Assembly: GCA_964016885.1 (NCBI GenBank) | Contig: OZ024743.1 | Coordinates: forward strand, 215,326,001 to 215,390,000 | Direction: 5' to 3' | Source: Eledone cirrhosa | Lineage: Eukaryota | Length of the DNA: 64,000 bases | In this document: piece by piece, positions 4,100 through 64,000 of the stretch | How the letters are laid out: the number at the start of each line of letters is the position of its first letter | How positions within the stretch are numbered: position 1 is the stretch's first letter | Notes under the pieces: model-generated | The model's input: only the letters and a program-made list of their open reading frames with translations | Told to the model about the DNA's origin: nothing | The model's database searches: none | Translations under genes and position numbers: made by a program

Positions 4100-6540
4100 A
4101 CGAAACGAGAGGAGATTCAGACAGATGAGACAGAACCGCATGTTTGACAACAAACTAAGACATTCTGGAGAGGAATATGGGAGCAGGATGTTAAACATAA
4201 TGACCAGGCACTGTGGATTGAGTCAGTAGAAAAGGAGATTAGTGGACAGGCACACCAACAAACTGATTTGAGTATCACAGTTGAAACTCTTAAGGGGCAG
4301 GCCAATAAATAACCAACTGGAAATCACCAAGCCCAGATTGTGTGCAGGGGTATTGGATTAAACATATAACATCCCTTCACCCGAAACTGACAACCATGTT
4401 CAATGACTGCTTGATGTCAGGTGAGGTACCAGAGTGGTTGACAAAAGGTACCACAGTTCTGGTAATGAAAGACCAAATCAAGGGTAATGATGTTACCAAC
4501 TATAGACCTATCACATGTCTGTCCGTAATGTGGAAACTGTTGACAAACATTGTGTCTGAGGAAATCTACCATCACCTCCACAAAAACAACTTGTTACCGG
4601 ACGAACAGAAAGGATGCCGAAAGAAGTCCCCTGGTACAAAGGACCAGCTACTTATTGATAAGATGGTAATGAGGAATTACCAGAGGAGACACACTGGCCT
4701 TGCCATGGGATGGATAGACTACAAAAAGGCATTTGACATGGTGACTCATTCTTGGATCACCAAAAGCCTAGAGTTCTTCAAGGTGGCAGATAACATCAGA
4801 CAGTTGTTGGAGAAAAGTATGAAGTCCTGGAAAACAGAGTTACCATCAGCTGGAGAATCCTTGGGAGGCGTGAAGATCAAGAGAGGTATCTTCCAGAGAG
4901 ATAGTCTGTCCCCTCTGTTGTCTGTCCTTGCCCTGATGGCCCTGACCATTATACTGCGAAAAGTGAGAGCAGGATACAAATTGGGAAAGGGAGAGCTTAC
5001 CAACAATCTCCTCCTCTTCACGGAGATCTTAAGCTCTTCGGGAAGAGTGAGAAGGAGTTGGATGTGCTTGTTGACACTGTCCGTATTTTGAGAAATGATA
5101 TATGTATGCAATTTGGTATTAGTAAGTGTGGAGTCCTTGTGATGAAGAGGAGTAAATTGAGCAGAAGCAACGGAATCCAGGTGAGATGACAAAGCAAATT
5201 GACACTGAAGACGGATACAAGTATTTGGGTGTTCTGGAGGTTGATGACATCAAGAACAAAAAAATAAAGGAATTGATAAGATCTGAATACATTCGGAGAG
5301 TAAAGAGCGTATTAAAGTCACATCTGAACAGTAGGGATGCAATAAGTGCAGTAAATTCCCGAGCTGTGTCTATTATTAGGTACAGTGCGGGAATTCTGAG
5401 ATGGAATGTTGCTGAACAAAAAGAAATGGATATCAAGACGCGGAAGGTTTTGACTATCTACAACATGTTCCACAGGTGGAGTGATGTCGATAGACTTTAC
5501 TTAAGGAGATCTGAAGGTGGAAGAGGTCTTATCAGCATTGAGGACTGTGTTCAAATGGAGAAAAACAACCTACACAAATACGTGACTGATAGTAAGGTGC
5601 CAATGCTCATAATTGTACTGAAGGAGAGGTCAATAGACCAGGGGATATCCAAGGAGGAAATAACAAGAAGAAAGAGCAGCCTTCATGAAAAAATCCCTTC
5701 ATAGTACCTTCTTTGAGAAAACTGAATTCAGAAATCCACAGACATGGAACTGGTTGAAAAGAAGAGACCTTAAAAAGGCTGCAGAAGGAATGCTAATGGC
5801 TGCGCAAGAGCAGGCCCTCAAAACGAAGTGGTTGAAACACCATATTTACAAGGAGGAGGCTAGCCCACTGTGCAGGATCTGTGGAGAGAGAGAGGATACT
5901 GTGGCTCACATTGTGTCCGAGTGTAAACACCTAGCCCAGACTCACTATAAAGGCTGGAGACATGATGTGATGGGCAGGGTGATCCACTGGCACCTATTCA
6001 AAGTAAACAATCTACCACATTCTGAGAAGTGGTATGAACATAAGCCAGAGTCGGTGATAGAAAACGATCAGGTGAAGGTGTTGTTGGATTTTAGGATACA
6101 GACGGACAAGAAACTGGAACACAATAGACCTGACCTTGTGGTTTTGGATAAGGAAAAAGATCGTACCTGATTGTGGATGTGGACTGCCCATTCGACCCGA
6201 GAGTGCAAGAGAAGTAGAGGGAGAGAATTAACCGATACCAGGACTTAAATTGGGAGGTAAAAAGGATTTGGAACTGCCATGAATTCAAAGTGGTCCCGAT
6301 TGTCATAGGCGCACTAGGTATTACCTCAAAAAGTTTCCAGGGATGGTTAAAGAAAATTGGCCCCGCACCGCTTTTTGGAACGCTTCAAAAGGCATGTCCT
6401 GAATATCTGAGGCTGCAGGTAGTGGCTTGATATTCATTTCAACAATCTTTCCAGTTAACTAACATCAATGACTGAGACTCAAAGAAAAATAATAATAATA
6501 ATAATAATAATATTAATAATAATAATAAAAAAATAATAAA
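4100..6540 (+). mobile_element. R4/Dong-clade RLE non-LTR retrotransposon, 5'-truncated, degenerate
   Basis: RT fragments 4342..5091 and 5186..5704 (NYRPITCL, WIDYKKAFD, GIFQ.DSLSP); CCHC and RHD, PD-LV RLE motifs in 5685..6170; (TAA)n at both ends; highly similar to 53890-56350. Confidence 0.92.
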
Positions 6541-12174: not shown

Positions 12175-12619
12175 TCAACTATATTTTTTCAATATGTTAT
12201 TGCTATTACGACTATCAACAATTATTAGTATCCAACTCTGGAATTGATCTCTGACTGGATTGTAAACAATAGATAACAATATGTTCATCGTATCAAGTTA
12301 ATTTGCTGTAGCCATTTACGTCCAATTGTTTAGTTTCCAAAAGTAAATTAGCCTGGTTATGCGAATATTATTTAGTGTTATCAACTATTATTCTTTATCA
12401 GAGTGATAGTTGATAACTCTAAATAATATTCGCATAACCAGGCTAATTTACTTTTGGAAACTAAACAATTGGACGTAAATGGCTACAGCAAATTAACTTG
12501 ATACGATGAACATATTGTTATCTATTGTTTACAATCCAGTCAGAGATCAATTCCAGAGTTGGATACTAATAATTGTTGATAGTCGTAATAGCAATAACAT
12601 ATTGAAAAAATATAGTTGA
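12175..12619. repeat. ~213-bp near-perfect inverted repeat with ~17-bp spacer
   Basis: 12175-12388 is the reverse complement of 12406-12619 with about one mismatch. Confidence 0.97.
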
Positions 12620-23135: not shown

Positions 23136-23195
23136 TTTATTATATATATTTCGAAGGTACTGTGTTGTCTTTTCAGTACGTCCTCGTCAGATAAA
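23136..23195 (-). ncRNA. Type I hammerhead ribozyme (candidate)
   Basis: minus: tttat CTGACGA g..gtactg-loop-cagtac.. GAAA tatatat A ataaa; stem I tttat/ataaa, AT-palindromic stem III. Confidence 0.7.
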
Positions 23196-23490: not shown

Positions 23491-26084
23491 AGGGAGAAAA
23501 AGACGATTATTAGGAAGAAAAATACATGTTTTCTTTTTAATTTTCTCTCTATATTCTGGGTTAGAAATTGTTTAAAACAAAATATTTTACTTTGTGTGAA
23601 GTGTTAAGGTATTAGTTAATTTATTAATTAACAATACATTTATTTATTTATTTATTCATTTATATATTTAATACCGGTTTCAGCATGTTATGCATTATCA
23701 CAGGGGGGAATTCGTATTGGTATAAAATGTTGGAGAGAAGATAATGTGATGTTGAACATGTTAAGGAAATGGGAAAGAAAGAATAATATTATTTACAAAC
23801 AAGGTTTTTGAAGTAAAAAGAAAAAAAGAAAAAAAGGGGATGATGTGCAACATAATAAGGTAATGGGAAAAAAAGAATAATATTATTTACAAGCATAGTT
23901 CTTTAGGGTAAGCAGTTCAAAATGTGTTATTATGGCAATAACGCTTGGTTAGTCCATGATGGAGACAAATGGTAATCTCGGGTTTAATATGATTTCCCTT
24001 TTTAGAGAGTTAATATGCATGGGGAGTTATTTCAGTGTGGTCGGGTAGGGTAGAGAGATGGATGAGAGGGTGTAGTTCATTTATATAAGAAAAAGCATTA
24101 GTTAGGATGTGAGGGAGGTAACTCTTTAGATAACATAGGAATTGGGGCTTTGGCTCATTGTTCGTTCCAGTTTTAGTTTAGTCCGAAGTTTAGTCCATTA
24201 AGTAGAGGTTAGAATTCGTTAATGATGTACGTTTCCTTATTGGTACGATGGATGAAAGACACTTTGTCTATGAATTAGTAAATGGGGAAAATTTTAAGGT
24301 TTGGATGTTGGTTAGGTGCACAATTGGTGATATGTTTACGAAAAGCAATCCTTCTGTATTCCTGTATTTTGATTTGTCATCTATGGACGGTCATACGTTT
24401 TCGGAGGCTGTGTTTTGTCTGTTTTAAGTAGTGCTCTTGACAACGTGAGCAGGTCAAAACAGAGAATAGGTCTTCAGATGCAGATGTAAAGTTGTATTTA
24501 ACTGTGAAATGTTGTCCTTGTTTAAAATGGAATGTTGAACCTTCTATTAGATTTATGCTTATACCACAGTTGAGCATTCCGGATTTTTTTACTGTAGGGT
24601 TTATTGTGAGGGTTAGTTAGATGTTGGCTTGTGTGAAGATGTTTGTTTATGGATTTAGGTTGTCTTTTGCTCTTTATGATGTTGTGTGTTTGGAGGATTT
24701 TGTTCATTCTTGGGTCTCGTTTTCGTAAAGGAATGTTCTGGAGGATGGTGTCGAATGGCTCATTGTTGAGGGGGTTGTGTGTGGAGAAGTATTGTAGAGT
24801 TTTCTGTTTCGGTTCATTCCTGGGTTTGGGTTGTCTGAGTTCATGGATGTTGAGTTTTATGGCACGTTGGAATCCATTGTTGATTAGGGATGATGGGTAG
24901 TTTCTGCTGATAAGTGTGTTCTTTAATTCTTCTAGTCGTGTGTAGCATGTTTATTTATCTGAAACTGTTGTGCAGATTCTTCTGGCAAGGTTATAAGGAA
25001 TTGCCATTTTGCTATGGCGAGGGTGGCACGAGTTAAATGGAAGATATTGTTTGGAGTCTGTGGGTTTGTAGTATATGTCTGTTTCTATTTCGTTGTTTGT
25101 TTCCTCGATGAGGTTGTCGAGGAAAAGGAGTTGTTCATGGCTGTATTCCATTGTAAATTGTAAATTTGTGTTGAGTCCATTTAGAATGGTTTTAAAGTCA
25201 ATCAGACTTTCTATACCTTCAGGCCAGAGGATGAAGCAGTCGTCCAGACATCTCTTCCAGTTTTTGTCTATGTGTAGGTACAAGTGCTTAGCGTATTTGT
25301 CTAGAACTTTGCGGTAGAGAGTGGTTTCCAAATATCCCATGACAAGGTTGGAGTATGAAGGGGCTACTTTCGTGCCCATGGCAGTCCCAGCTTTCTGTCT
25401 GTAGTATTTGGCATCGAATTCAAAGAAGTTGTTTTCAAAGATGAATTTGAGGCCCTCCAACCCAAATTCTTTAGGGATGCGCTGTGGAAGTTCACTAGGT
25501 AAATTTTCAAGCCAGAATTGTATAACCTCTATACCTACGTTGTATGGGACATTGGAATATAGATTGATGACATCAAAGGTTACTAGTAGGGTATGTTCAT
25601 TATTAAGTGTTGTTGGGAGGTGGTTGAATATGTCAACGTCGTCCCTTATGAATCTTTTTATGTGTTTTAGGAAAGGTTTCAATCATAATAACTAGGAAGT
25701 TGCTTAGACGGTGGGTTTCACATGTAGTACCTGCTATTATGGGTCTTAAATTAAGGTCATCTGGAGGGGGAATATTGATGTAAATGCCTGTGGCCACTTG
25801 CAGGCCCTGCCTATTACTTCACTTTTGTGTGTCTTTGGACGTCGTAGAAAAGGCTTCTTCTGCTTTTGAAATTGGTGTTGTAGTTGTATTCCTTGTCGGT
25901 AAGGCCTTCTTTGTAAAGGGTTGTTAGGGATTTTAGGTTTCTCATTATTTTCTGTTGTGTGTAGTGTTGGGCCTTTTCGTATTATGTTTGGTTTTCTAGA
26001 GTTGAGAGTACTAGAGTCATGTAGTTATCTATCTTCATAAGGACTACTACACTCCCTTTATCCGCCTCTTTGATTGTTAGGTTT
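23490..26084 (-). mobile_element. Penelope-like element family A (RT + GIY-YIG), 5'-truncated, degenerate
   Basis: ADKG motif at ~26060; TFDVINLYSN, GTAMGTKVAP, RCLDDCF, DIYYKPTD in 24951..25682; VLTCSRCQEHYLKQT..LRKRM GIY-YIG remnant in 24377..24577. Confidence 0.92.
23669..23706 (-). ncRNA. Degenerate minimal hammerhead in the family A 3'UTR
   Basis: minus: gTGATAA t gcat-aac-atgc t GAAA ccgg TA; same strand as the ORF; stem I poor. Confidence 0.5.
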
Positions 26085-32423: not shown

Positions 32424-32739
32424 CATTCACACACACGCACACAATCATATAAATAACATCCGCACGCATATACTCCCGCTCTGCATACGCACCAAAGAGA
32501 AACCATAAAACTATAGACATATGCGTCCACAGATGCCGCCCTACATGCCCACGTACATCAACTCACACATTCACACACGCACACAGATGCATACGCGTAT
32601 ATCTACTCGTATACACAAACAGGTAGAGACGTATACAATGACACGCACACGCACATACACACATGTGTCCATATATACAGGCACAAAAACAGACTCGCTC
32701 GCAAACACACACACGTATATATATATATATATATATATA

Positions 32740-33123
32740 TTAATAAGAGGAATTCCAACTTTTTCTGATTTACTCGTTTTATTTACAATCCTCTAAAATA
32801 TATAATGGTATTATAATGAAATAGTATGATAGAATATTAAATTCTAAGTGTTAATTGAACAAGTACGTTCATGCTTTCGCAATCTTCAGGTTCATAATAT
32901 GTGGTGACAGTCGAGTTTTCAATTTTCAACTGTTGAAAATTGCAAACTCGACTGTCACCACATATTATGAACCTGAAGATTGCGAAAGCATGAAAGTACT
33001 TGTTCAATTAACACTTAGAATTTAATATTCTATCATACTATTTCATTATAATACCATTATATATTTTAAAGGATTGTAAATAAAACGAGTAAATCAGACA
33101 AAGTTGGAATTCCTCTTATTAAT
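32740..33123. repeat. ~380-bp zero-spacer palindrome between (TA)n tracts
   Basis: arms of ~190 bp, apex ttttcaac-t-gttgaaaa at ~32931, few mismatches. Confidence 0.97.
32968..33006 (+). ncRNA. Minimal type I hammerhead ribozyme, intact core
   Basis: tgaac CTGAAGA t tgc-gaaa-gca t GAAA gtacT T gttca: stem I tgaac/gttca, GNRA-capped stem II, palindromic stem III AGTACT. Confidence 0.85.
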
Positions 33124-33172
33124 ATTATCTTCTATACACAATCATACATACCCGTGTATATCTACCTATCTA

Positions 33173-33237
<65 letters not shown>

Positions 33238-33239
33238 AG

Positions 33240-35868
33240 TAATAATAATAAAATTGAAGACTAAAATTCAAAGAGGGCTCGATAAGGAAAATATATATCA
33301 AATATATAAGAACCGTAGAGCAAATATTTATTAAAATAACAGATTAAAGTTTAAGCAAAGAATCGCTGCTTTCACCCTTAACGGGATCTTCTGAAACTAA
33401 CAAAGTCAATCTGTAAACGCAGAACTGGATATTTCAAAAAACTTTGCAGCCGGAGGAAGACAGGAAGACGATACTTTGGTTCGTGGTAACGTTCGCTGGC
33501 AAAGAACGGGAAAAAACGAATAATACGTCATTAATAGGAGCGGTGAAAAACATTTACGCGCAAAGACAGAACCACGTTTATGGTATAAAAGAGGTCGTAG
33601 ACTAATGTTCTCTTAGGTGGTGCATAGAGACGTTCTCTGGCAATGAACGAAAAAACGAAGATAATAAGTCATATGTGGATCGTTAAGAACAATAGCACGC
33701 GAAGACAAAACCACGTAAATGGTATAGCAGAAGCTGTAGACTAAAATTCTAACTAGGGGACCAAATGAATCTCCGCTACAGAGTAAAGAACAAAGTAAAT
33801 AAATACAATACAGAAGTAATGGAAACAAATAAATACATACACGCAAACAGATACGTACATAGACAAGCATACGCAAAACCTTACAATAGGTAAACAAAAC
33901 CACGCACATATAAATATGTGTGTGTGTGTATGCTTGTGTACAAATAAATAAATAATTATATAAACGTATATAAGTAAATAAATACGTATATAACAAGCGC
34001 ACACACATACCTACAAATAAATACACGAATGTTCGGAGACGTAAGTCAACTAAAACAAGAAGTACACATATACACACACCCACCATACGTACGAACCTGC
34101 ATACTCACGCAGACGCAAAATTCCCGTATACACATAGCCAAACCCTAAATACCAGAATATGTAAAAAGTATACGACATAACAGTCAAATATACGTACGAG
34201 AAGGTATACATTCACAAAACATACGGGTAATATATACATACCTATGCAAATAAATAAAGGAATAAACAAAACATATACTTAGCTCCCACATGAAGACGTA
34301 AAATATCCACGTATAGATCATATTTCTTACTCTACGACTCCTAACCTTGCACATAACATCACAGCTTCAAATTTAACTAACTACGTAGCCGTAGGAACAC
34401 GTGCAACCCTGTAGTTAGTACTAACTGTAATTGTAGGAATCGGGCTGATTGCCCCCTATCCGGGAAATGCCTCTCTAGTAACATTGTCTACAAATGTAAG
34501 GTTGTAACACCCATGTAACTTAGGGCCTACATAGGGTTAACTGCCAATAGTTTCAAGCAGCGTCTTTACATGCATACCCATTCTTTTCGTTACCCTCTAA
34601 GAAGGAATATGACGTCACTTTCAGCTTATATCTGGAGTCTAAAAGACAACCACGCCCAATATAATTTACACTGGGAGATCCTAGGTAGAGCTAGATCGTA
34701 TAACGGAAATAAAAGACCTTGTGACCTCTGCGCCGCTGAGGCCCTGGAAATACTCTACGCCAGAGACCACATCTTAAACAAAAAATCTGAGGCAATTTCG
34801 GCTTGTAAACCTAAATTGCACAAAACTTTCCTGTATTACAGCCCCACGTTATACCCTAACGGATAGCACGATCTATACGTGGATATTTTACGTCTTGATG
34901 TGGGAGCTAAGTATATGTTTTGTTTATTCCTTTACTTATTTGCATAGGTATGTATATATTACCCGCATGTGTTGTGAAGGTATGTATACCTTCTCGTACT
35001 TATATTTGACTGTTATGGCGTATAATTTTTACATATTCTGGTATTTAGGGTTTGGCTATGTGTATACGGGAGTTTTACGTCTGCGTGAGTATGCAGGTTC
35101 GTACGTATGGTGGGTGTGTGTATATGTGTACTTCTTGTTTTAGTTGACTTACGTCTCCGAACATTCGTGTATTTATTTGTAGGTATGTGTGTGCGCTTGT
35201 TATATACGTTTGTATTTACTTATATACGTTTATATAATTATTTATTTATTTGTACACAAGCATACACACACACACATATTTATATGTGCGTGGTTTTGTT
35301 TACCTATGGTAAGGTTTTGCGTATGCTTGTGTATGTACGTATCTGTTTGCGTGTATGTATTTATTTGTTTCTATTACTTCTGTATTGTATTTATTTACTT
35401 TGTTCTTAACTCTGTAGCGGAGATTCATTTGGTCCCCTAGTTAGAATTTTAGTCTACAACTTCTGCCATACCATTTACGTGGTTTTGTCTTTGCGTGCTA
35501 TTGTTCTCCACGCTCCACATATGACTTATTATCTTCGTTTTTTCGTTCATTGCCAGATAACGTATCTATGCACCAATTAAGAGAACATTAGTCTACGACC
35601 TCTTTTATACCATAAACGTGGTTCTGTCTTTGCGCGTAATTGTTTTTCTCCGCTCCTATTAATGACGTATTATTCGTTTTTTCCCGTTCTTTGCCAGCGA
35701 ACGTTTCCACGAACCAAAGTATCGTCTTCCTGTCTTCCTCCGGTTGCAAAGTTTTTTGAAATATCCAGTTCTGCGTTTACAGATTGACTTTGTTAATTTC
35801 AGAAGATCCCGTTAAAGGTGAAAGCAGCGATTCTTTGCTTAAACTTTAATCTGTTATTTTAATAAATA
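33240..35868 (+). mobile_element. Penelope family B copy 1: inverted 3'UTR (33240-34319) + GIY-YIG fragment + direct 3'UTR
   Basis: 34322-34866 matches the 3' end of ORF 43385..44689; ~1-kb inverted repeat; (TA)n flanks. Confidence 0.95.
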
Positions 35869-36182
35869 TATATATATATGTATATATACATATATATGCA
35901 GACAAACAAGCCCTTACCCTACAGTGGGTGCACCGTACACACACACACACTGGCTCATATACACGCTTATAAATATGCGCTTATTACCTACAGGGTCACG
36001 CACGTCTACAAATATACATACATAGATATATCTGTCTTTACACAAATATGATATACACACAAAGTCATATAAAGCTACGCAATTGGTCATACAAGGGTCA
36101 TACATGAAAGGATTCATCTTGTTATACACATGCACACATATAAACAATATACATACATCCATACACATACATACACATACGT

Positions 36183-36239
<57 letters not shown>

Positions 36240-36306
36240 CATATATATAGCGGCGAGGAATTAGTTTAGCGAGGTTTTTTATATGAAATCGTGTGTCGAA
36301 ACAAAT

Positions 36307-36456
36307 ATTGTTATAGTTGGGGAGGGTCATATTTGTGTAATATTGCCAGAATTAATAACAGAACACACTCACTGTTTGGTTGGTTTTCGCTTCTCGCTGA
36401 GTGTGTTCTGTTATTAATTCTGGCAATATTACACAAATATGACCCTCCCCAAGTAT

Positions 36457-36462
<6 letters not shown>
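36307..36462. repeat. Short foldback element, ~64-bp arms
   Basis: ttgttata.ttggggagggtcat...cacactca / tgagtgtg...atgaccctccccaagtataacaa; a related end occurs at 23029-23070. Confidence 0.9.
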
Positions 36463-36522
<60 letters not shown>

Positions 36523-42660: not shown

Positions 42661-43110
42661 TAAAATACGTAGTTTAGAAAGCCACAACAATGCAGAGGGA
42701 AATCTAGAAATAGGAAGTGAATGATAGATAGGAGAAACAGGAGAAAGTGAAAATTGAGAGAGACAAAGATGAAAACAAAACAAAGGTAGAAGGGTTACCG
42801 TAGTGGAGATTTAATCCCAATATTTCGGGCTAATATACAGGAATGCCGTTATAACGGCATTCCTGTCTTAACGACATCACAACTTTCTCCGCTTAGCCTG
42901 TTCCCCCCCTTTTGGAACTTTCCCCCGTTGATGGGCGTGAGCCCGAAATATTGGGATTAAATCTCCACTACGGTAACCCTTCTACCTTTGTTTTGTTTTC
43001 ATCTTTGTCTCTCTCAATTTTCACTTTCTCCTGTTTCTCCTATCTATCATTCACTTCCTACCTCGAGATTTCCCTCTGCATTGTTGTGGCTTTCTAAACT
43101 ACGTGTTTTA
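42661..43110. mobile_element. Non-coding inverted-arm element (~170-bp arms) with degenerate hammerhead at 42921-42956
   Basis: 42661-42831 is the reverse complement of 42940-43110; ccc CCGTTGA t gggc-gtga-gccc GAAA taTT ggga; (TA)n flanks. Confidence 0.85.
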
Positions 43111-43384
43111 TATATATATATATTTATTAAAATAACAGATTAAAGTTTAAGCAAATAATCGCTGCTTTCACCCTTAACGGGATCTTCTGAAACTAACAGA
43201 GTCAATCTGTAAACGCAGAACTGGATATTTCAAAAAACGTTGCAACCGGAGGAAGACAGGAAGACGATACTTTGGTTCGTGGTAACGTTCGCTGGCAAAG
43301 AACGGGAAAAAACGAATAATACGTCATTAAAAGGAGCGGTGAAAAACAATTACGCGCAAAGACAATTTCGCTAAAACACTCACA

Positions 43385-44689
43385 GTGGTTAAGGATTTTG
43401 AAGTTGATGTCATCCTTAATGCCCGAAAGTCGATGATTAATTTCGACGACACTATTTGGATTAAAAAATCCAATAGTACCCCACCATTCGGCGTGAGTAT
43501 GGGCGCCAGTGACTCTGCGGAGGTTACTGATCTTATTGGCCTTTTCCTTCTTTTCTCTATCAAGGACGAATTCCCCAACGCGGGCGGTGGTTTGTACCGT
43601 GACGACGGTCTTTTGACCATGACTAAGTGCGGACCTCGTGCTTGCGACAGGTTCAGAAAAGAACTCACAGCCTTCTTTAAAGGCTTCAATCAATCTATAC
43701 AGGTTGAGGCCAATCTCTCGGTCGTTAATTACCTCGACGTTACCCTCAATTTATTGAATGGGTTGTATTACCCGTATAGAAAGCCGAATGATACGCTTAA
43801 TTACATAAGTAAGCATTCCAAACATCCTGCCAGCATAACCAAGAACCTGTTAAGAAACGTTTCAATGAGGCTTTCCCGTCTTTCCACCAACAAGCGCATT
43901 TTCAACGACCATTCCACTTATTACAATGAAGCTCTTGCTCGAAGTGGATTTGTCGATAAGGTAGCATATACAGTGTACGAAAATAGACCTAGAAGAAATA
44001 GATCCCGCCGCATTTGTTGGTTTAACCCACCATATAATATGGAGGTGGCCACACCATTAGCTAAGATCTTTCTTTCCCTTATTACGAAGCATTTTCCCCC
44101 TACACATAAATATAGTAAAATTTTTAATAGAAATACTATTAAAATTTCTTACTCTACAACTCCTAACCTTGCACATAACATCACAGCTTCAAATTTAGCT
44201 AAACTACATAGCCGTAGGAACACGTGCAACCCTGTAGGTAGTACTAACTGTAATTGTAGGAAACGGGCTGATTGCCCCCTATCCGGGAAATGCCTCTCTA
44301 GTAACATTGTCTACAAATGTAAGGTTGTAACACCCACGTCCCGTAGGGCCTACATAGGGTTAACCGCCAATAGTTTCAAGCAGCGTCTTTATATGCATAC
44401 CCATTCTTTTCGTTACCCTCTAAGAAGGAATATGACGTCACTTTCAGCTTATATCTGGAGTCTAAAAGACAACCATACCCAATATAAGTTACACTGGGAG
44501 ATCCTAGCTTGGGCTAGATCGTATAACGGAAATAGAAGACCATGTGACCTCTGCGCCGCTGAGGCCCTGGAAATACTCTACGCTACAGACCTCATCTTAA
44601 ACAAAAAATCTGAGCCAATTTCGGCTTGTAAACATAAATTGCACAAAACGTTCCTGTATTACAGCCCCACGTTATACCTTAACGGATAG
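43385..44689 (+). CDS. Penelope-like RT (C-terminal half) + GIY-YIG endonuclease, 434 aa uninterrupted, N-terminally truncated
   Basis: FGVSMGA, GLYRDDGL, NYLDVTL, YRKPND, WFNPPY, CNCR..CPL.G.CL linker, NIVYKC...AYIGLT...FKQRL..H, CDLC..E. Confidence 0.95.
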   Translation: MVKDFEVDVILNARKSMINFDDTIWIKKSNSTPPFGVSMGASDSAEVTDLIGLFLLFSIKDEFPNAGGGLYRDDGLLTMTKCGPRACDRFRKELTAFFKGFNQSIQVEANLSVVNYLDVTLNLLNGLYYPYRKPNDTLNYISKHSKHPASITKNLLRNVSMRLSRLSTNKRIFNDHSTYYNEALARSGFVDKVAYTVYENRPRRNRSRRICWFNPPYNMEVATPLAKIFLSLITKHFPPTHKYSKIFNRNTIKISYSTTPNLAHNITASNLAKLHSRRNTCNPVGSTNCNCRKRADCPLSGKCLSSNIVYKCKVVTPTSRRAYIGLTANSFKQRLYMHTHSFRYPLRRNMTSLSAYIWSLKDNHTQYKLHWEILAWARSYNGNRRPCDLCAAEALEILYATDLILNKKSEPISACKHKLHKTFLYYSPTLYLNG

Positions 44690-45617
44690 CACGATCTATA
44701 CGTGGATATTTTACGTCTTCATGTAGGAGCTAATTATATGTTTTGTTTATTCCTTTACGTATTTGCATAGGTAAGTATATATTACCCGTATGTTTTGTGA
44801 AGGTATGTATACCTTCTCGTACGTATATTTGACTGTTATAGCGTATACTTTTTACATATTCTGGTATTTAGGGTTTGGCTATGTGTATACGGGAGTTTTG
44901 CGTCCGCGTGAGTTTGCAGGTTCGTACGTATGGTGGGTGTGCGTATATGTGTACTTCTTGTTTTAGTTGACTTACGTCTCCGAACATTCGTGTATTTATA
45001 TGTAGGTATGCGTGTGCGCTTGTTATATACGTATTTATTTACTTATATACGTTTATATAATTATTTATTTATTTGTACACAAGCATACACACACACACAT
45101 ATTTATATGTGCGTCGTTTTGTATACCCATGGTAAGGTTTTGCGTATGCTTGTGTATGTACGTATCTGTTTGCGTGTATGTATTTATTTGTTCCTATTAC
45201 TTCTGTATTGTATTTATTTACTTTGTTCTTAACTCTGTAGCGAAGATTCATTTGGTCTCCTAGTTAGAATTTTAGTCTACGATTTCTGCTATACCATTTA
45301 CGTGGTTTTGTCTTTGCGTGCTATTGTTCTCCACGCTCCACATATGACTTATTATCTTCGTTTTTTCGTTCATTGCCAGAGAACGTCTCTATGCACCACC
45401 TAAGAGAACATTAGTCTACGACCTCTTTTATACCATAAACGTGGTTTTGTCTTTGCGCGTAATTGTTTTTCACCGCTCCTATTAATGACGTATCATTCGT
45501 TTTTTCCCGTTCTTTGCCAGCGAACGTTACCACGAAACAAAGTATCGTCTTCCTGTCTTCCTCCGGTTGCAACGCTTTTTGAAATATCCAGTTCTGCGTT
45601 TACAGATTGACTTTGTT

Positions 45618-45668
45618 AGTTTCAGAAGATCCCGTTAAGGGAGAAAGCAGCGATTCTTTGCTTAAACA
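45618..45668 (+). ncRNA. Hammerhead-like motif with variant core CAGAAGA in the family B pLTR
   Basis: agttt CAGAAGA tccc-gttaa-ggga GAAA gca-gcgattctt-tgcT T aaac; same motif at 26241, 35795 and on minus at ~33350, ~38070, ~43145. Confidence 0.65.
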
Positions 45669-45777
45669 TTAATCCGTTATTTTAATAAATATTTGCTCTA
45701 CGGTTCTTATATATTTGATATATATTTTCCTTATCGAGCCCTCTTTGGATTTTAGTCTTCAATTTTATTATTATTAC

Positions 45778-45885
<108 letters not shown>

Positions 45886-45958
45886 AAGGAGTTATGGTAA
45901 GGAACCAGATGGGCCATAACGCACCAGAGTACTCAATAGCTAGGGTAGTAGAGTGGAT

Positions 45959-46072
45959 AATAGGAACAAGTATGACCCCGACGGCAGAGCTAAAGCCGTA
46001 TCGACGGCTATTTCTGGACTAAAATAGCCGTCGAAACGGCTTGAGCTCTACCGTAGTGGTCATACTTTTTCC

Positions 46073-46075
<3 letters not shown>
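45959..46075. repeat. Imperfect ~115-bp palindrome containing the 3' half of a hammerhead
   Basis: ataggaa.aagtatgacc...gacggctatt-loop-aatagccgtc GAAAcgg...ccGTA...ggtcatactt.ttcctat. Confidence 0.8.
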
Positions 46076-46132
<57 letters not shown>

Positions 46133-47907: not shown

Positions 47908-47994
47908 ACGTAGGAGGTAAGTTTTATTGTAGCATAATAAAGCAATGCAAATATCGGATAAGTAGGACTCAACAGTTCATAAGACTGGATTATA

Positions 47995-48344
47995 AATAAT
48001 ATAAGATCAAAAGATGGTTAAAATAGTTCCATGTATTTTGTTATGCGCATTTCAAAAACAAATATCATCATGGGATGATATTTGCGTTCTCATCAGAAAA
48101 AATAGGGAGACATGATATGAAGCTAAAAAAAACACTTGCGAGCAGTGAATTATTAAATCAACATGATGAAGTGTTAAATCAATATGATTATTTAATACTT
48201 CACTGCTCGCAAGCGTTTTTTAAGCTTCATATCATGTCTCCCTATTTTATCTGATGAGAACGTAAATATCATCCCATGATGATATTGGTTTTTGAAATGC
48301 GCATAATAAAATACATGGAACTCTTTTAACCATCTTTTGATCTT

Positions 48345-48352
<8 letters not shown>
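47995..48352. repeat. Foldback element, ~160-bp arms with ~40-bp spacer, a hammerhead in each arm
   Basis: 47995-48155 is the reverse complement of 48192-48352. Confidence 0.95.
48243..48313 (+). ncRNA. Type I hammerhead ribozyme, intact core
   Basis: tattttat CTGATGA gaac..aatatcat-ccc-atgatgatatt..ttt GAAA tgcgc ATA ataaaata; stem I tattttat/ataaaata, palindromic stem III ATGCGCAT. Confidence 0.85.
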
Positions 48353-48926
<574 letters not shown>

Positions 48927-49587: not shown

Positions 49588-49588
49588 A

Positions 49589-49954
<366 letters not shown>

Positions 49955-50240
49955 TTTAATTATACGCTGCTCTATTATTGATGTTATTGTTTCGTTTTAC
50001 GCTACTCCTCTACATATATCTTGCCTCGAATGAATTATTTTGATATCTATGTGCTGTGATGTGTTGACAAGTGGTAAACATTGTATTGGAGATCGATTGA
50101 GACATCCTCAAGCGATTAGACAAATCTAGGCTCCTGATCAACGAAACAATTGTCAGTGCTTTAAATAAAGCCCATATTGTACAGCCAACTATGTTACTCT
50201 TCTTTATTTAACTTACATATATATATATATATATTTATAA

Positions 50241-52850: not shown

Positions 52851-55800
52851 GATAAGAGTGTTTAAATGTCGAACCTAAACAGTTCGAATAACGGTGAAAT
52901 GGAGACTAGAACGTCATGTGACAGACTCTCACCAAACAGGTGCTCCCTGGCTCAGCAGCAGGGACCTGGCTGTCAACCAAATACTGCTGGTGTCGGAGGA
53001 AGAAGAAGAAGGAAAGGGACCAGAACCAACTGGACGAAAGAATTGAATAGAACTGTTATGCAATGTTACCTGAAAAGTAACCCCAAGGAGAGGGGCTATA
53101 GGAAACGGATGCATAACATCTGGCACGAGATTGGTCTATTTAAATTAGATGAACAACAATTGGCCGGGCAGGCTCGGTTAATAAGAACTAATGGGTGGAT
53201 AAGCGAGCTGGAACTGGAGGAACTGAGCAGAGAGATTAGCTTGGAGATGGAGGGTGGATATGCCAGGCAAACGAGCCAGTGGGAAATGAAGGTGAAGAGG
53301 TCGAGAGAACGGAGGAACCACCCGAAGCAGACAATGATCTGAATACTGAGATAAATAATACCTGGAACAGAGATACGGCCACTGAGGAGATGAATGCTGA
53401 CGGGCTAGGACAAGATTTGGTTGACATCCTAAATTTAGTGGTAGATGAATTGAACAATGATAGTGGGAGACCTATGAACCTAAGATTTGTAGACAGGAAA
53501 AAGTTAAAAGAAACAACAGCTAAGGTAAATAAAATCATCGCATACCTTGAGGCGAGGAGCCTTCACCAGTGCAACAATATCCTCAAAGCAACAGTAAATA
53601 CGGAGAGGAAACTACTTGGTATAAAAGCGAGAGGAAACAACAGACAAGAAAGAGGAGAGCCTTGGTGGAAGAAACGACTGAGTGGTCAAATCAGGGAAAT
53701 GAGAAATGACATAGGAAAGCTTGAGTCCCTACTGAATGGGACACTGAAAAACATAGACACTAAAAATAGACTGAAAATAAAGTACCATACTGGGAGCAAA
53801 AGGCTAAATATTATCATAGAGGGACTGAAGCAATGCATTGTAGCAAAGAGTGCAACAATCAGGTGATACAAGAACAGAGTCAGTCAGTATAAACAGAACC
53901 GCATGTTCGACAACAACCAGAAGATGCTGTTTGGACAGCTTGAGGGGAAAGAAAGTGGCAACGACTTGATCCCTGAGGCGGAACAAACTAAAACATTCTG
54001 GAGGGGAATATGGGAGCAGGATGTTAGACATAATGACCAGGCAGAGTGGATTGAGACAGTACAGAAGGAGATCGGTGAACAGGCACACCAACAAACTGAT
54101 TTGAGTATCATAGTTGAAACTCTTAATCTTAAGGGGCAGGTAAAAAAACTAACCAACTGGAAATCACCAGGCCCAGATGGTGTGCAGGGGTATTGGATTA
54201 AAAATATAACATCCCTCCACCCGAAAATGACAACCATGTTCAATGACTGCTTGATGTCAGGTGAGGTACCAGAGTGGTTGACAAAAGGTACAACAGTTCT
54301 GATAATGAAACACCGAATCAAGGGTAATGATGTTACCAACTATAGACCTATCACATGTCTGTCCGTAATGTGGAAACTGTTGACGAGCATTGTGTCTGAG
54401 GAAATCTACCATCACCTCCACACAAACAACTTGTTACCGGACGAACAGAAAGGATGCCGAAAGAAGTCACGTGGTACAAAGGACCAGTTACTTATTGATA
54501 AGATGGTAATGGGGAATTGCAGGAGGAGACACACTGATCTTGCCATGGGATGGATAGACTACAGAAAGGCATTTGACATGGTGCCTCATTCTTGGATCAC
54601 CAAAAGCCTGGAGATCTTCAAGGTGGCAGATAACATCAGACAGTTGTTGGGCAAAAGTATGAGGTCCTGGGAAACAGAGTTGACATCAACTGGAGAATCC
54701 TTGGAAAGCGTGAAGATCAAGAGAGGTATCTTCCAGGGAGATAGCCTGTCCCCTCTGTTGTTTGTCCTTGCCCTGATGCCCCTGACCAATGTACTGCGAA
54801 AAGTGAGAGCAGGATACAGGTTGGGAAAGGGAGGGCTTACCATCAACCACCTCCTCTTCATGGACGATCTTAAGCTCTTCGGGAAGAGTGAGAATGAGTT
54901 GGATGTGCTTGTTGACACTGTCCGTATTTTCAGCAGTGATATATGTATGCAGTCTGGTATTAGTAAGTGTGGAGTCATTGTGATGAGGAGGGGTAGGTTG
55001 AGCAGAATTAACGGAATCCAGATACCAACAGGTGAGATGGTAAAGGAAATTGACTCTGAGGAAGGATACAAGTATTTGGGCGTTCTGGAGGCTGATGGCA
55101 TAAAGAACAAAAACATGAAGGAATTGTTAAGAACTGAATACATTCGGAGAGTAAGGAGCGTGTTGAAGTCACATCTGAACAGCAGAAATGCCATAAGCGC
55201 AGTAAATTCCCGAGCTGTGTCTATTATTAGGCACAGTGCGGGAAATCTGAGATGGAATGTTGCTGAACAAAAAGAACTGGATAGGAAGACTAGGAAGCTA
55301 TTGACTATCTACAACATGTTCCACAAGAGGAGTGATGTCGATAGACTCTACTTAAGGAGATCTGAGGGTGGAAGAGGTCTTATCAGCATAGAGGACTGTG
55401 TTCAGATGGAGAAAAACAACCTACACAAATACGTGACTGATAGTAAGGAGCCAATGCTTAGAGCTGTACTGAAGGAGGGGACAATAGGCTAGGGGATGTC
55501 CAAGGAGGAAATATCATCAAGGAGAAAGAGCAGCCTCCAGGAAAAATCCCTTCATAGAGAAAACTGAATTTAGAGATCCACAGACATGGAACTGGTTCGG
55601 AAGAGGAGACCTTAAAAAGGCTACAGAAGGAATGTTAATAGCTGCGCAAGAGCAGGCCCTCAAAACGAAGTGGTTGAAACACCATATTTACAAGGAGGAG
55701 GCTAGCCCACTGTGCAGGATCTGTGGAGAGAGAGAGGAGACTGTGGCTCACATTGTATCCGAGTGTAAACACCTAGCCCAGACCCACTATAAGGGCTGGA

Positions 55801-56355
55801 GATATGATGTGATGGGCAGGGTGATCCACTGGCACCTGTGCAAAGTAAACAATTTACCACATTCTAAGAAGTGGTATGAGCATAAGTCAGAGGCGGTGAT
55901 AGAGAACAATCAGGTGAAGGTGCTGTGGGATTTTAGGATACAGACGGACAAGAAACTGGAACACAATAGACCTGACCTGGTGGTTGTGGACAAAGAAAAA
56001 AGATCGTGCCTGATTGTGGATGTGGCCTGCCCATTCGACACGAGAGTGCAAGAGAAGGAGAGGGAGAAAATTAACCGATACCAGGACTTAAAGTGGGAGG
56101 TAAAAAGGATTTGGAACTGCCATGAATTCAAAGTGATCCCGATTGTCATAGGCGCACTATGGAGTATCTCAAAAAGTTTCCAGGGATGGTTAAAGAAAAA
56201 ACAGCAAGAACCCTCCGATACGTCCTGAATATCTGAGGCTGCAGGTAGTGGCTTGATATTCATTTCAACAAACTTTCCAGTTAACTAACATCAATGACTG
56301 AGACTCAAAGAGTAATAACAATAATAATAATAATAATAATAATAATAGTAATAAA
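52774..56355 (+). mobile_element. Near full-length R4/Dong-clade RLE LINE, inactivated
   Basis: single ORF from 52866 broken into 52866..53342, 53279..53866, 53903..55492 (RT, LFMDDLKL), 55632..56228 (CCHC, PDL..IVDVACP RLE); N-terminal WTKE.N...CY...GYRKRM..IW motif; (TAA)n tail. Confidence 0.95.
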
Positions 56356-63619: not shown

Positions 63620-64000
63620 CATTAGCTAAGATCTTTCTTTCCCTTATTACGAAGCATTTTCCCCCTACACATAAACATATTAAAATGTTTAATAGAAATA
63701 CTATTACACTTTTTTACTCTACGACTCCTAACCTACGACATAACATCACAGCTTCAAATTTAGCTAAACTTCCTAGCCGTAGGAACACGTGCAACCCTGT
63801 AGTTAGTACTAACTCTAATTGTAGGAATCGGGCTGATTGCCCCCTATCCGGGAAATGCCTCTCTAGTAACATTGTCTACACATGTAAGGTTGTAACACCC
63901 ACTTCCCGTAGGGCCTACATAGGGTTAACCGCCAATAGTTTCAAGCAGCGTCTTTACATGCATACCCATTCTTTTCGTTACCCTCTAAGAAGGAATATAA
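63620..64000 (+). mobile_element. Penelope family B copy 3, fragment running off the window end
   Basis: matches 44055-44433; preceded by (TA)n. Confidence 0.95.

What the first reader, a model, noticed from the sequence alone, without database searches (positions are those of the whole stretch)
32740..33123. Self-contained palindromic mini-element carrying two opposed hammerhead ribozymes
Seen: a ~380-bp zero-spacer palindrome between (TA)n tracts. The right arm has an intact minimal type I hammerhead (32968-33006); the left arm has its mirror with GAAA changed to GAAC. Established: minimal hammerheads mark Penelope pLTRs and retrozymes, and animal retrozymes are described as direct tandem repeats. 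Inference: this is either a coding-free foldback retrozyme or the extreme product of two 3' ends integrating back-to-back. A transcript from either strand would give long dsRNA with an embedded cleavage site.
Basis: partly seen in the sequence, partly recalled or inferred. Interest (0 to 1): 0.8.

Follow-up and report, generated by a model that had tools for sequence, protein, structure and literature searches.

The report
Back-to-back stumps of a Penelope retrotransposon
This 390-base palindrome is two head-to-head copies of the ribozyme-bearing end of a common Penelope-like jumping gene, one of roughly 1,300 such pairs in the genome; they were likely built afresh at each insertion from a short RNA, so it is a known kind of structure rather than a new mobile ribozyme.

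Summary
The palindrome (194-nt arms, 4 mismatches, 1-nt apex) and the hammerhead motifs are real. The element runs about 45 nt further right than reported. Each arm is the pLTR of a 4.1-kb Penelope-like element with many intact RT + GIY-YIG copies. The extra piece is the known PLE 'tail'.

About 1,300 palindromes have their apex at the same pLTR start; control windows gave 14 and 1, and the ribozyme cut site gave 16. That start lies 31 nt below a conserved TATA-like box, so it is likely the RNA 5' end. In 86 of 88 head-to-head pairs exactly one arm carries the tail. The two arms nearly always share a subfamily allele (34 of 35), but apex junctions do not follow subfamily. The palindromes are therefore likely made anew at each insertion, not copied as a unit.

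The retrozyme reading is not supported. A read-through RNA is predicted to bury the ribozyme in a hairpin. Inverted 5'-truncated PLE copies with a one-sided tail are in print, and this scan noted similar stumps in another genome. What is added is the strict one-tail rule, which suggests two primings on one RNA.

The parts
32716..32740 (.). (TA)n target tract at the untailed end
   Evidence: untailed arms mostly run into (TA)n in other copies
32737..32931 (-). Untailed pLTR copy, read outward from the apex; it supplies the apex base
   Evidence: reference positions -2 to +196, no tail
32856..32894 (-). Minimal type I hammerhead motif with GAAA changed to GAAC (A15.1 to C); predicted inactive
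   Evidence: 78 exact copies of this variant in the genome
32920..32942 (.). Apex junction at the inferred RNA 5' end, with a 2-nt microhomology
   Evidence: 642 exact genomic copies; about 1,300 apices in this window of the pLTR
32932..33125 (+). Tailed pLTR copy (+1 to +196 of the parent's pLTR)
   Evidence: 0 substitutions over the compared columns to 7 other genomic arms
32968..33006 (+). Minimal type I hammerhead motif, intact core, palindromic stem III, predicted cut after 33001
   Evidence: 3,375 exact copies of the 41-mer
33126..33172 (+).
33167..33238 (.). (TA)n target tract at the tailed end, shared with the next PLE insertion (33212-35869)

Best explanation
This is an extremely short head-to-head insertion of a Penelope-like retrotransposon's pLTR, likely made when the element's enzyme cut both strands of a (TA)n tract and copied a short pLTR RNA outward from each cut end. 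Shown: each arm is the parent's pLTR; only one arm has the tail; 5' ends pile up at one position with a TATA-like box 31 nt upstream in longer copies; arms share subfamily alleles while junctions vary. Inferred steps: (1) Copies that keep the upstream promoter make an RNA of about 240 nt (start, hammerhead, tail). (2) The RT/GIY-YIG protein, made in trans by intact copies, nicks both target strands. (3) One cDNA starts at the distal site (tail included) and the other at the proximal TA-rich site about 40 nt inside, most likely on the same RNA molecule. (4) Both run to the RNA 5' end, and their 3' ends anneal through the 2-nt GT/AC microhomology, which gives the modal apex. The hammerhead is a passenger: mostly uncut in inserted copies, and predicted to be masked in any read-through hairpin. 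The locus is probably an inert, promoterless relic.
For: Parent: the arm lies downstream of a GIY-YIG ORF. Many 775-aa ORFs exist among the 150 scored matches; the ORF matches Pfam RVT_1 (E 2.9e-06, below the curated cut-off) and GIY-YIG (above it). The tandem unit is 4,138 nt with the pLTR at both ends. Tail: exactly one tail in 86 of 88 pairs, and 45 of 45 for apices at +1. Start: 57 of 90 arms picked only by a distal 38-mer begin at -10 to +10. Apex counts are 1,298 matches against 14, 1 and 16 in other windows. A full-length copy, L078, also starts there. TATAAAAG or TATATAAG sits at the same spacing in young and old subfamilies. Same template: 34 of 35 pairs agree at a dinucleotide marker that splits the family 108:102; diagnostic-site difference is 0.097 within pairs vs 0.387 between loci. 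Two cDNAs, not one fold-back: the untailed arm is the longer one in 11 of 28 unequal pairs, and the apex base comes from either arm (10 vs 7). Papers: PMC11167929 (a PLE cuts and extends both strands, starts RT at two sites bounding the tail, and does not need hammerhead cleavage in vitro); PMC8557442 (inverted 5'-truncated copies, tail often at one end).
Against: No transcript, cap or cleavage data were obtained; the start site and the short RNA are inferred from DNA ends. In 2 of 44 palindromes the arms carry different common multi-base alleles, which needs two RNAs or later conversion. Two of 88 pairs have two tails. [quoted passage not shown] Loci were chosen by exact patterns, mostly from the start of contig C1, so old copies are under-sampled, and one segmental duplicate is counted twice in the 88.
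Confidence: 0.8

Rival explanations
1. Same PLE origin, but one cDNA made from the tail end folds back at its 3' end and copies itself; the second strand, or an endonuclease trim, stops at the TA-rich site and so lacks the tail.
For: Explains identical arms and a single tail. PMC3846280 interprets palindromes at inverted PLE junctions as self-priming; PMC8557442 ascribes the tail to endonuclease resolution.
Against: The untailed arm is longer in 11 of 28 unequal pairs. The apex base comes from the untailed arm in 10 of 17 modal junctions, including this locus. The modal apex would need a 1-nt loop. Several junctions keep the extreme 5' bases on both arms.
Confidence: 0.1
2. A coding-free foldback retrozyme: the whole palindrome is transcribed and reinserted as one unit, with a master copy passing on its apex.
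For: 642 loci share the exact 23-nt apex. Five palindromes carry the GAAC variant on both arms.
Against: Same-junction palindromes are no closer in haplotype than others (0.376 vs 0.397, P=0.21). The seven palindromes sharing this locus's main alleles have seven different junctions. Every common short-copy haplotype also has long, promoter-bearing members. Solo and long copies start or continue at the same point. The palindrome has no direct tandem, and the TATA-like box is absent.
Confidence: 0.05
3. Assembly fold-back artefact at this locus.
For: No long read spanning this locus could be examined.
Against: The arms differ at 4 sites and in the tail. One of the differences is a variant found at 77 other places. 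Raw Illumina reads of a 2026 run with the same species label cover the apex base (14 reads, both apex letters); they may come from any of the many loci.
Confidence: 0.02
4. A MITE or foldback DNA transposon that happens to contain a hammerhead-like motif.
For: It is palindromic, short, high-copy and sits in TA tracts.
Against: The ends are asymmetric (tail on one arm), the arms are the 3' end of an RT-encoding element, and 5' truncations form a continuum.
Confidence: 0.01

Closest known systems
Endonuclease-positive Penelope-like elements with an inverted 5'-truncated copy and tail (PMC8557442, PMC3846280; passages read)
   Same: Head-to-head inverted copies, palindrome at the junction, a 30-40-bp-class tail at one end, (TA)n targets, hammerhead in the pLTR, TATA- and initiator-like motifs, CX4CxxC motif before GIY-YIG.
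   Different: Here the majority product is pLTR-only, with both arms starting at one nucleotide window (about 1,300 loci), and the one-tail rule is nearly absolute (86 of 88). The passages I read give this only qualitatively.
Dual minimal hammerheads on opposite strands 100-700 bp apart in Schistosoma mansoni Cercyon PLEs (PMC4209133; first part and passages read)
   Same: Two opposed minimal type I hammerheads from truncated PLEs; palindromic helix III; a single motif showed no cleavage in vitro.
   Different: That paper does not describe the apex, tail or start-site focus in the parts I read.
PAc (Poseidon, Anolis) in vitro mechanism (PMC11167929; parts 1-2 of 4 read)
   Same: Both strands cut and extended, two RT start sites bounding the tail, AT-rich targets, hammerhead cleavage dispensable.
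   Different: Different clade with a single ORF; no coupling of the two start sites across the two strands was reported.
Non-LTR retrozymes (bioRxiv 10.64898/2026.07.22.740005; part 1 of 5 read)
   Same: Non-coding, type I hammerhead, derived from PLE pLTRs; the solo short copies here resemble their 'monomers'.
   Different: Defined as direct tandem repeats with a hammerhead in each unit; this locus is inverted and the two motifs are on opposite strands.

Membership tests
EN+ Penelope-like element (parent family) | RT followed by C-terminal GIY-YIG endonuclease | tested here: met
   775-aa ORF: RVT_1 E 2.9e-06 (27.6 bits, under the 29.6 cut-off), GIY-YIG E 3.3e-06; relatives with both domains at 45-65% identity, several named from bivalves. 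Absent from the locus itself.
EN+ Penelope-like element (parent family) | Partial tandems forming pLTRs | tested here: met
   L084, L080, L077-L079; unit 4,138 nt
EN+ Penelope-like element (parent family) | Hammerhead motif in the pLTR | tested here: met
   Descriptor match at +37 to +75; Rfam models did not report it
EN+ Penelope-like element (parent family) | Inverted 5'-truncated copy and one-sided tail | tested here: met
   95 head-to-head pairs; 86 of 88 scorable pairs with exactly one tail
Neptune/Nematis-type PLE | CX2-5CxxC motif between RT and endonuclease | tested here: met
   CNDSRCGTC in the ORF; feature taken from PMC8557442
Neptune clade specifically | RT phylogeny with named references | not tested
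   No named Neptune or Nematis reference was fetched; the label 'Neptune-like' is from motifs and recall
Non-LTR retrozyme | Direct tandem units each with a type I hammerhead | tested here: not met
   Inverted, not tandem
Non-LTR retrozyme | Self-cleavage and circular RNA | not testable with these tools
   No bench or RNA data; only 4 of 90 arms start at the predicted cut
MITE / foldback DNA transposon | Symmetric termini, no link to an RT | tested here: not met
   Tail asymmetry and continuity with the RT ORF

The most novel reading that the evidence does not exclude
Penelope-like elements copy one RNA twice: two reverse transcriptase sites start about 40 nt apart on the same molecule, one from each cut target strand, so every two-armed insertion has one tailed and one untailed arm of the same sequence. 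Here the main substrate is a short, promoter-driven pLTR RNA that behaves like a built-in SINE and has seeded over a thousand 390-bp hairpins in the genome.
Probability: 0.4. Interest if true: 0.6.

Novelty: new member of a known kind. Interest (0 to 1): 0.35.

Why it matters
The locus alone is a routine PLE relic. The family statistics matter more, because how PLEs make inverted repeats and the one-sided tail is stated as unresolved (PMC8557442, PMC11167929). A young, high-copy family with intact ORFs, a near-absolute one-tail rule, same-haplotype arms and a single start point gives a sharp, testable prediction for the insertion mechanism. Over a thousand near-perfect hairpins are also a possible source of dsRNA and of assembly or MITE mis-annotation.

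Tried and rejected
- Rfam scan: no hammerhead hit; only weak miRNA-model matches to the hairpin, far below the gathering score.
- DNA search of the genome with one arm returned nothing, not even itself, probably because very common words are skipped; I switched to patterns.
- Ribozyme cut site as apex hot spot: rejected for palindromes, 16 vs 14 in a control window, though the patterns differ in length. Among host-joined copies, 5 of 25 loci, read by eye from the 100 listed matches with two duplicates collapsed, start at the cut base, and 4 of 90 arms start at +70 to +72. That is a weak hint of occasional cleavage only.
- Link between the GAAC variant and the untailed arm: not significant (Fisher P=0.24).
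- Hammerhead core more conserved than the rest among copies: no (1.09% vs 1.05%, 156 arms); uninformative, as copies decay neutrally.
- Cap-derived extra G at junctions: could not be told apart from templated insertions.
- Separate lineage of short copies: not seen.
- Sequencing runs: no RNA holder listed. Contig depth rises about tenfold at the pLTR start, but the tool warns it is no copy number, so I did not use it.
- ended in a script error.
- Paper searches found no report quantifying a start-site-focused apex or the one-tail rule. The library lacks most subscription journals, figures were not visible, and I read no supplements.

Full report
Observation. The inverted repeat has 194-nt arms at 32737-32930 and 32932-33125 with four mismatches and a single apex base. 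A descriptor scan finds a minimal type I hammerhead on the right arm and its mirror with GAAC on the left. Rfam reported no hammerhead in the window, and the monomer folds no better than shuffles. PMC4209133 describes minimal PLE hammerheads as having a weak, palindromic helix III, and a single motif showed no cleavage in vitro. The left arm ends in (TA)n. The right arm continues about 45 nt before its (TA)n.

Family. The window lies in a 3.0-Gb genome. An exact 41-mer over the hammerhead occurs 3,375 times and a distal 38-mer 6,258 times, with 0 for the reversed controls. Longer copies continue upstream through a 3' UTR into a GIY-YIG ORF. A protein search returned many intact 775-aa frames among the 150 matches scored. 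I fetched 20 such regions. They show a 4,138-nt tandem unit: pLTR, tail, an ORF1 of 476 codons stop-to-stop, an overlapping RT + GIY-YIG ORF2, a 3' UTR, and the pLTR again. ORF2 has a CX4CxxC motif before the endonuclease, the Neptune/Nematis feature given in PMC8557442; the clade was not tested by phylogeny. Named relatives include bivalve proteins. The 45-nt right extension is the sequence that follows the 5' pLTR in full-length copies, that is, the PLE tail.

Tail rule. I merged 220 fetched loci plus the window into 184 stretches with 295 arms. Of 95 head-to-head pairs, 88 had both arms reaching the pLTR end without running into ORF1; the other 7 were left out. Of the 88, 86 have a tail on exactly one arm, 2 on both and none on neither; for apices at the pLTR start it is 45 of 45 (binomial P 2.5e-23 against one half). 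In unequal pairs the tailed arm is longer in 17 and the untailed in 11. Of 145 tails, 133 end at +230 or beyond, in TA/TC-rich sequence. The sample was selected by exact patterns and is not random.

One start point. Among the 90 arms on the first 62.6 Mb of C1 that carry the distal 38-mer, 57 begin at -10 to +10. The matched starts reach no further than -5, which chance matches to flanking sequence can explain. Palindromic apices number 1,298 matches in this window of the pLTR (a few loci counted twice). There are 14 near +130, 1 near -100 and 16 at the ribozyme cut (longer pattern). The exact 23-nt apex of this locus occurs 642 times. A full-length copy, L078, begins at the same point on host (TA)n. 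Longer copies carry TATAAAAG (young) or TATATAAG (older) 31 nt upstream of the modal start, with CCAAT motifs further up. I infer a transcription start; no RNA data test it.

Made anew or copied as a unit? In 44 complete palindromes the two arms differ at 0.097 of diagnostic sites, against 0.387 between loci. They agree at a 108:102 dinucleotide marker in 34 of 35 scorable cases; 2 of 44 carry different multi-base alleles. Junction class does not track haplotype (P=0.21). The modal apex occurs in both orientations to the tail (10 and 7), and 22 of 44 junctions are other forms. The seven palindromes sharing this locus's main alleles show seven junctions. All common short-copy haplotypes have long members. 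So the arms come from one source per event, but the join is new each time. The GAAC variant occurs 78 times, on several backgrounds, and on both arms of five palindromes. This suggests that an intact core is not needed for the RNA to be copied, in line with PMC11167929.

Mechanism (inferred). PMC11167929 shows a PLE protein cutting and extending both target strands from two RT start sites that bound the tail. If both sites are used on one RNA, one from each target end, then every two-armed insertion has one tail and matching arms, either arm may be longer, and either may supply the apex base. All four fit the counts above. Two cDNA ends that reach the RNA 5' end can anneal through GT/AC, giving the modal apex. 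Simple fold-back of a tailed cDNA fits the first two points but not the last two. Endonuclease trimming (PMC8557442) is not excluded. A read-through transcript is predicted to form a full hairpin that pairs the hammerhead strands, and each strand encodes only one motif, so cleavage from this locus is unlikely.

Artefact check. Differing arms and a one-sided tail argue against a fold-back read. Raw Illumina reads from a 2026 run with the same species label cover the apex base with both letters (14 reads), but they cannot be assigned to this locus. No long read was available.

Comparison with what is known. Inverted 5'-truncated copies with a tail often at one end (PMC8557442, passages), palindromes at head-to-head junctions (PMC3846280, passages) and opposed minimal hammerheads 100-700 bp apart (PMC4209133, first part and passages) are in print. 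Retrozymes are defined as direct tandems (bioRxiv 10.64898/2026.07.22.740005, part 1 of 5), which this is not. Five paper searches showed no quantification of the start-site apex or the one-tail rule; coverage is limited and I saw no supplements or figures. Two unchecked notes from this scan describe similar stumps in another genome, read after my own analysis; none exists for this genome.

Verdict. A real structure and a new member of a known kind. It works like, and is, an extreme PLE inverted insertion. Interest is modest for the locus, with a worthwhile mechanistic lead from the family.

Noticed in passing
L076:5200-8861 (+); also L077-L080: The parent has an ORF1 overlapping the RT ORF in the -1 frame with an in-phase U-UUU-UUA heptamer, present in 25 of 25 copies covering it. 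No strong downstream structure was predicted, and a CAG splice-acceptor-like site follows, so splicing is a rival. PMC8557442 Fig. 1 legend mentions frameshifted ORF1 in some PLE types (figure not seen). ORF1 has no Pfam match above cut-off.
   Followed up: partly
window 33212-35869, 43110-45804, 63620-64000: A second PLE family: an inverted pair with a one-sided extension directly beside the finding, and a 448-aa frame with RT C-terminal and GIY-YIG-like motifs at 43343-44686 (read by eye; no Pfam hit).
   Followed up: partly
window 36305-36464, 42661-43110, 45957-46079, 47991-48354, 49588-49955: Five more palindromes of unrelated sequence, each with one end in (TA)n and extra non-TA sequence at the other end; 47991-48354 holds a hammerhead motif at 48251. 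The same insertion pattern probably applies to several families.
   Followed up: partly
window 23190 (-), 47298 (-): Further minimal hammerhead motifs; the one at 23190 lies downstream of a broken PLE-like RT frame at 24525-25682 (-).
   Followed up: no
window 12175-12619: 445-bp palindrome, 98% identical arms, without flanking (TA)n; origin not determined.
   Followed up: no
L076 (G000:C1:21871300-21881200): Palindromic dimer of two near-full-length elements with intact ORFs whose apex lies close to the predicted hammerhead cut.
   Followed up: partly
window 52866-56355 and 4149-6529: Two copies of a non-LTR retrotransposon with an RVT_1 domain (E 5.8e-25 for 53867-55489).
   Followed up: no
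one search hits P0006, P0010, P0070, P0092, P0116: Close relatives of this eukaryotic PLE protein are filed under bacterial symbionts of bivalves, probably host contamination of those assemblies.
   Followed up: no
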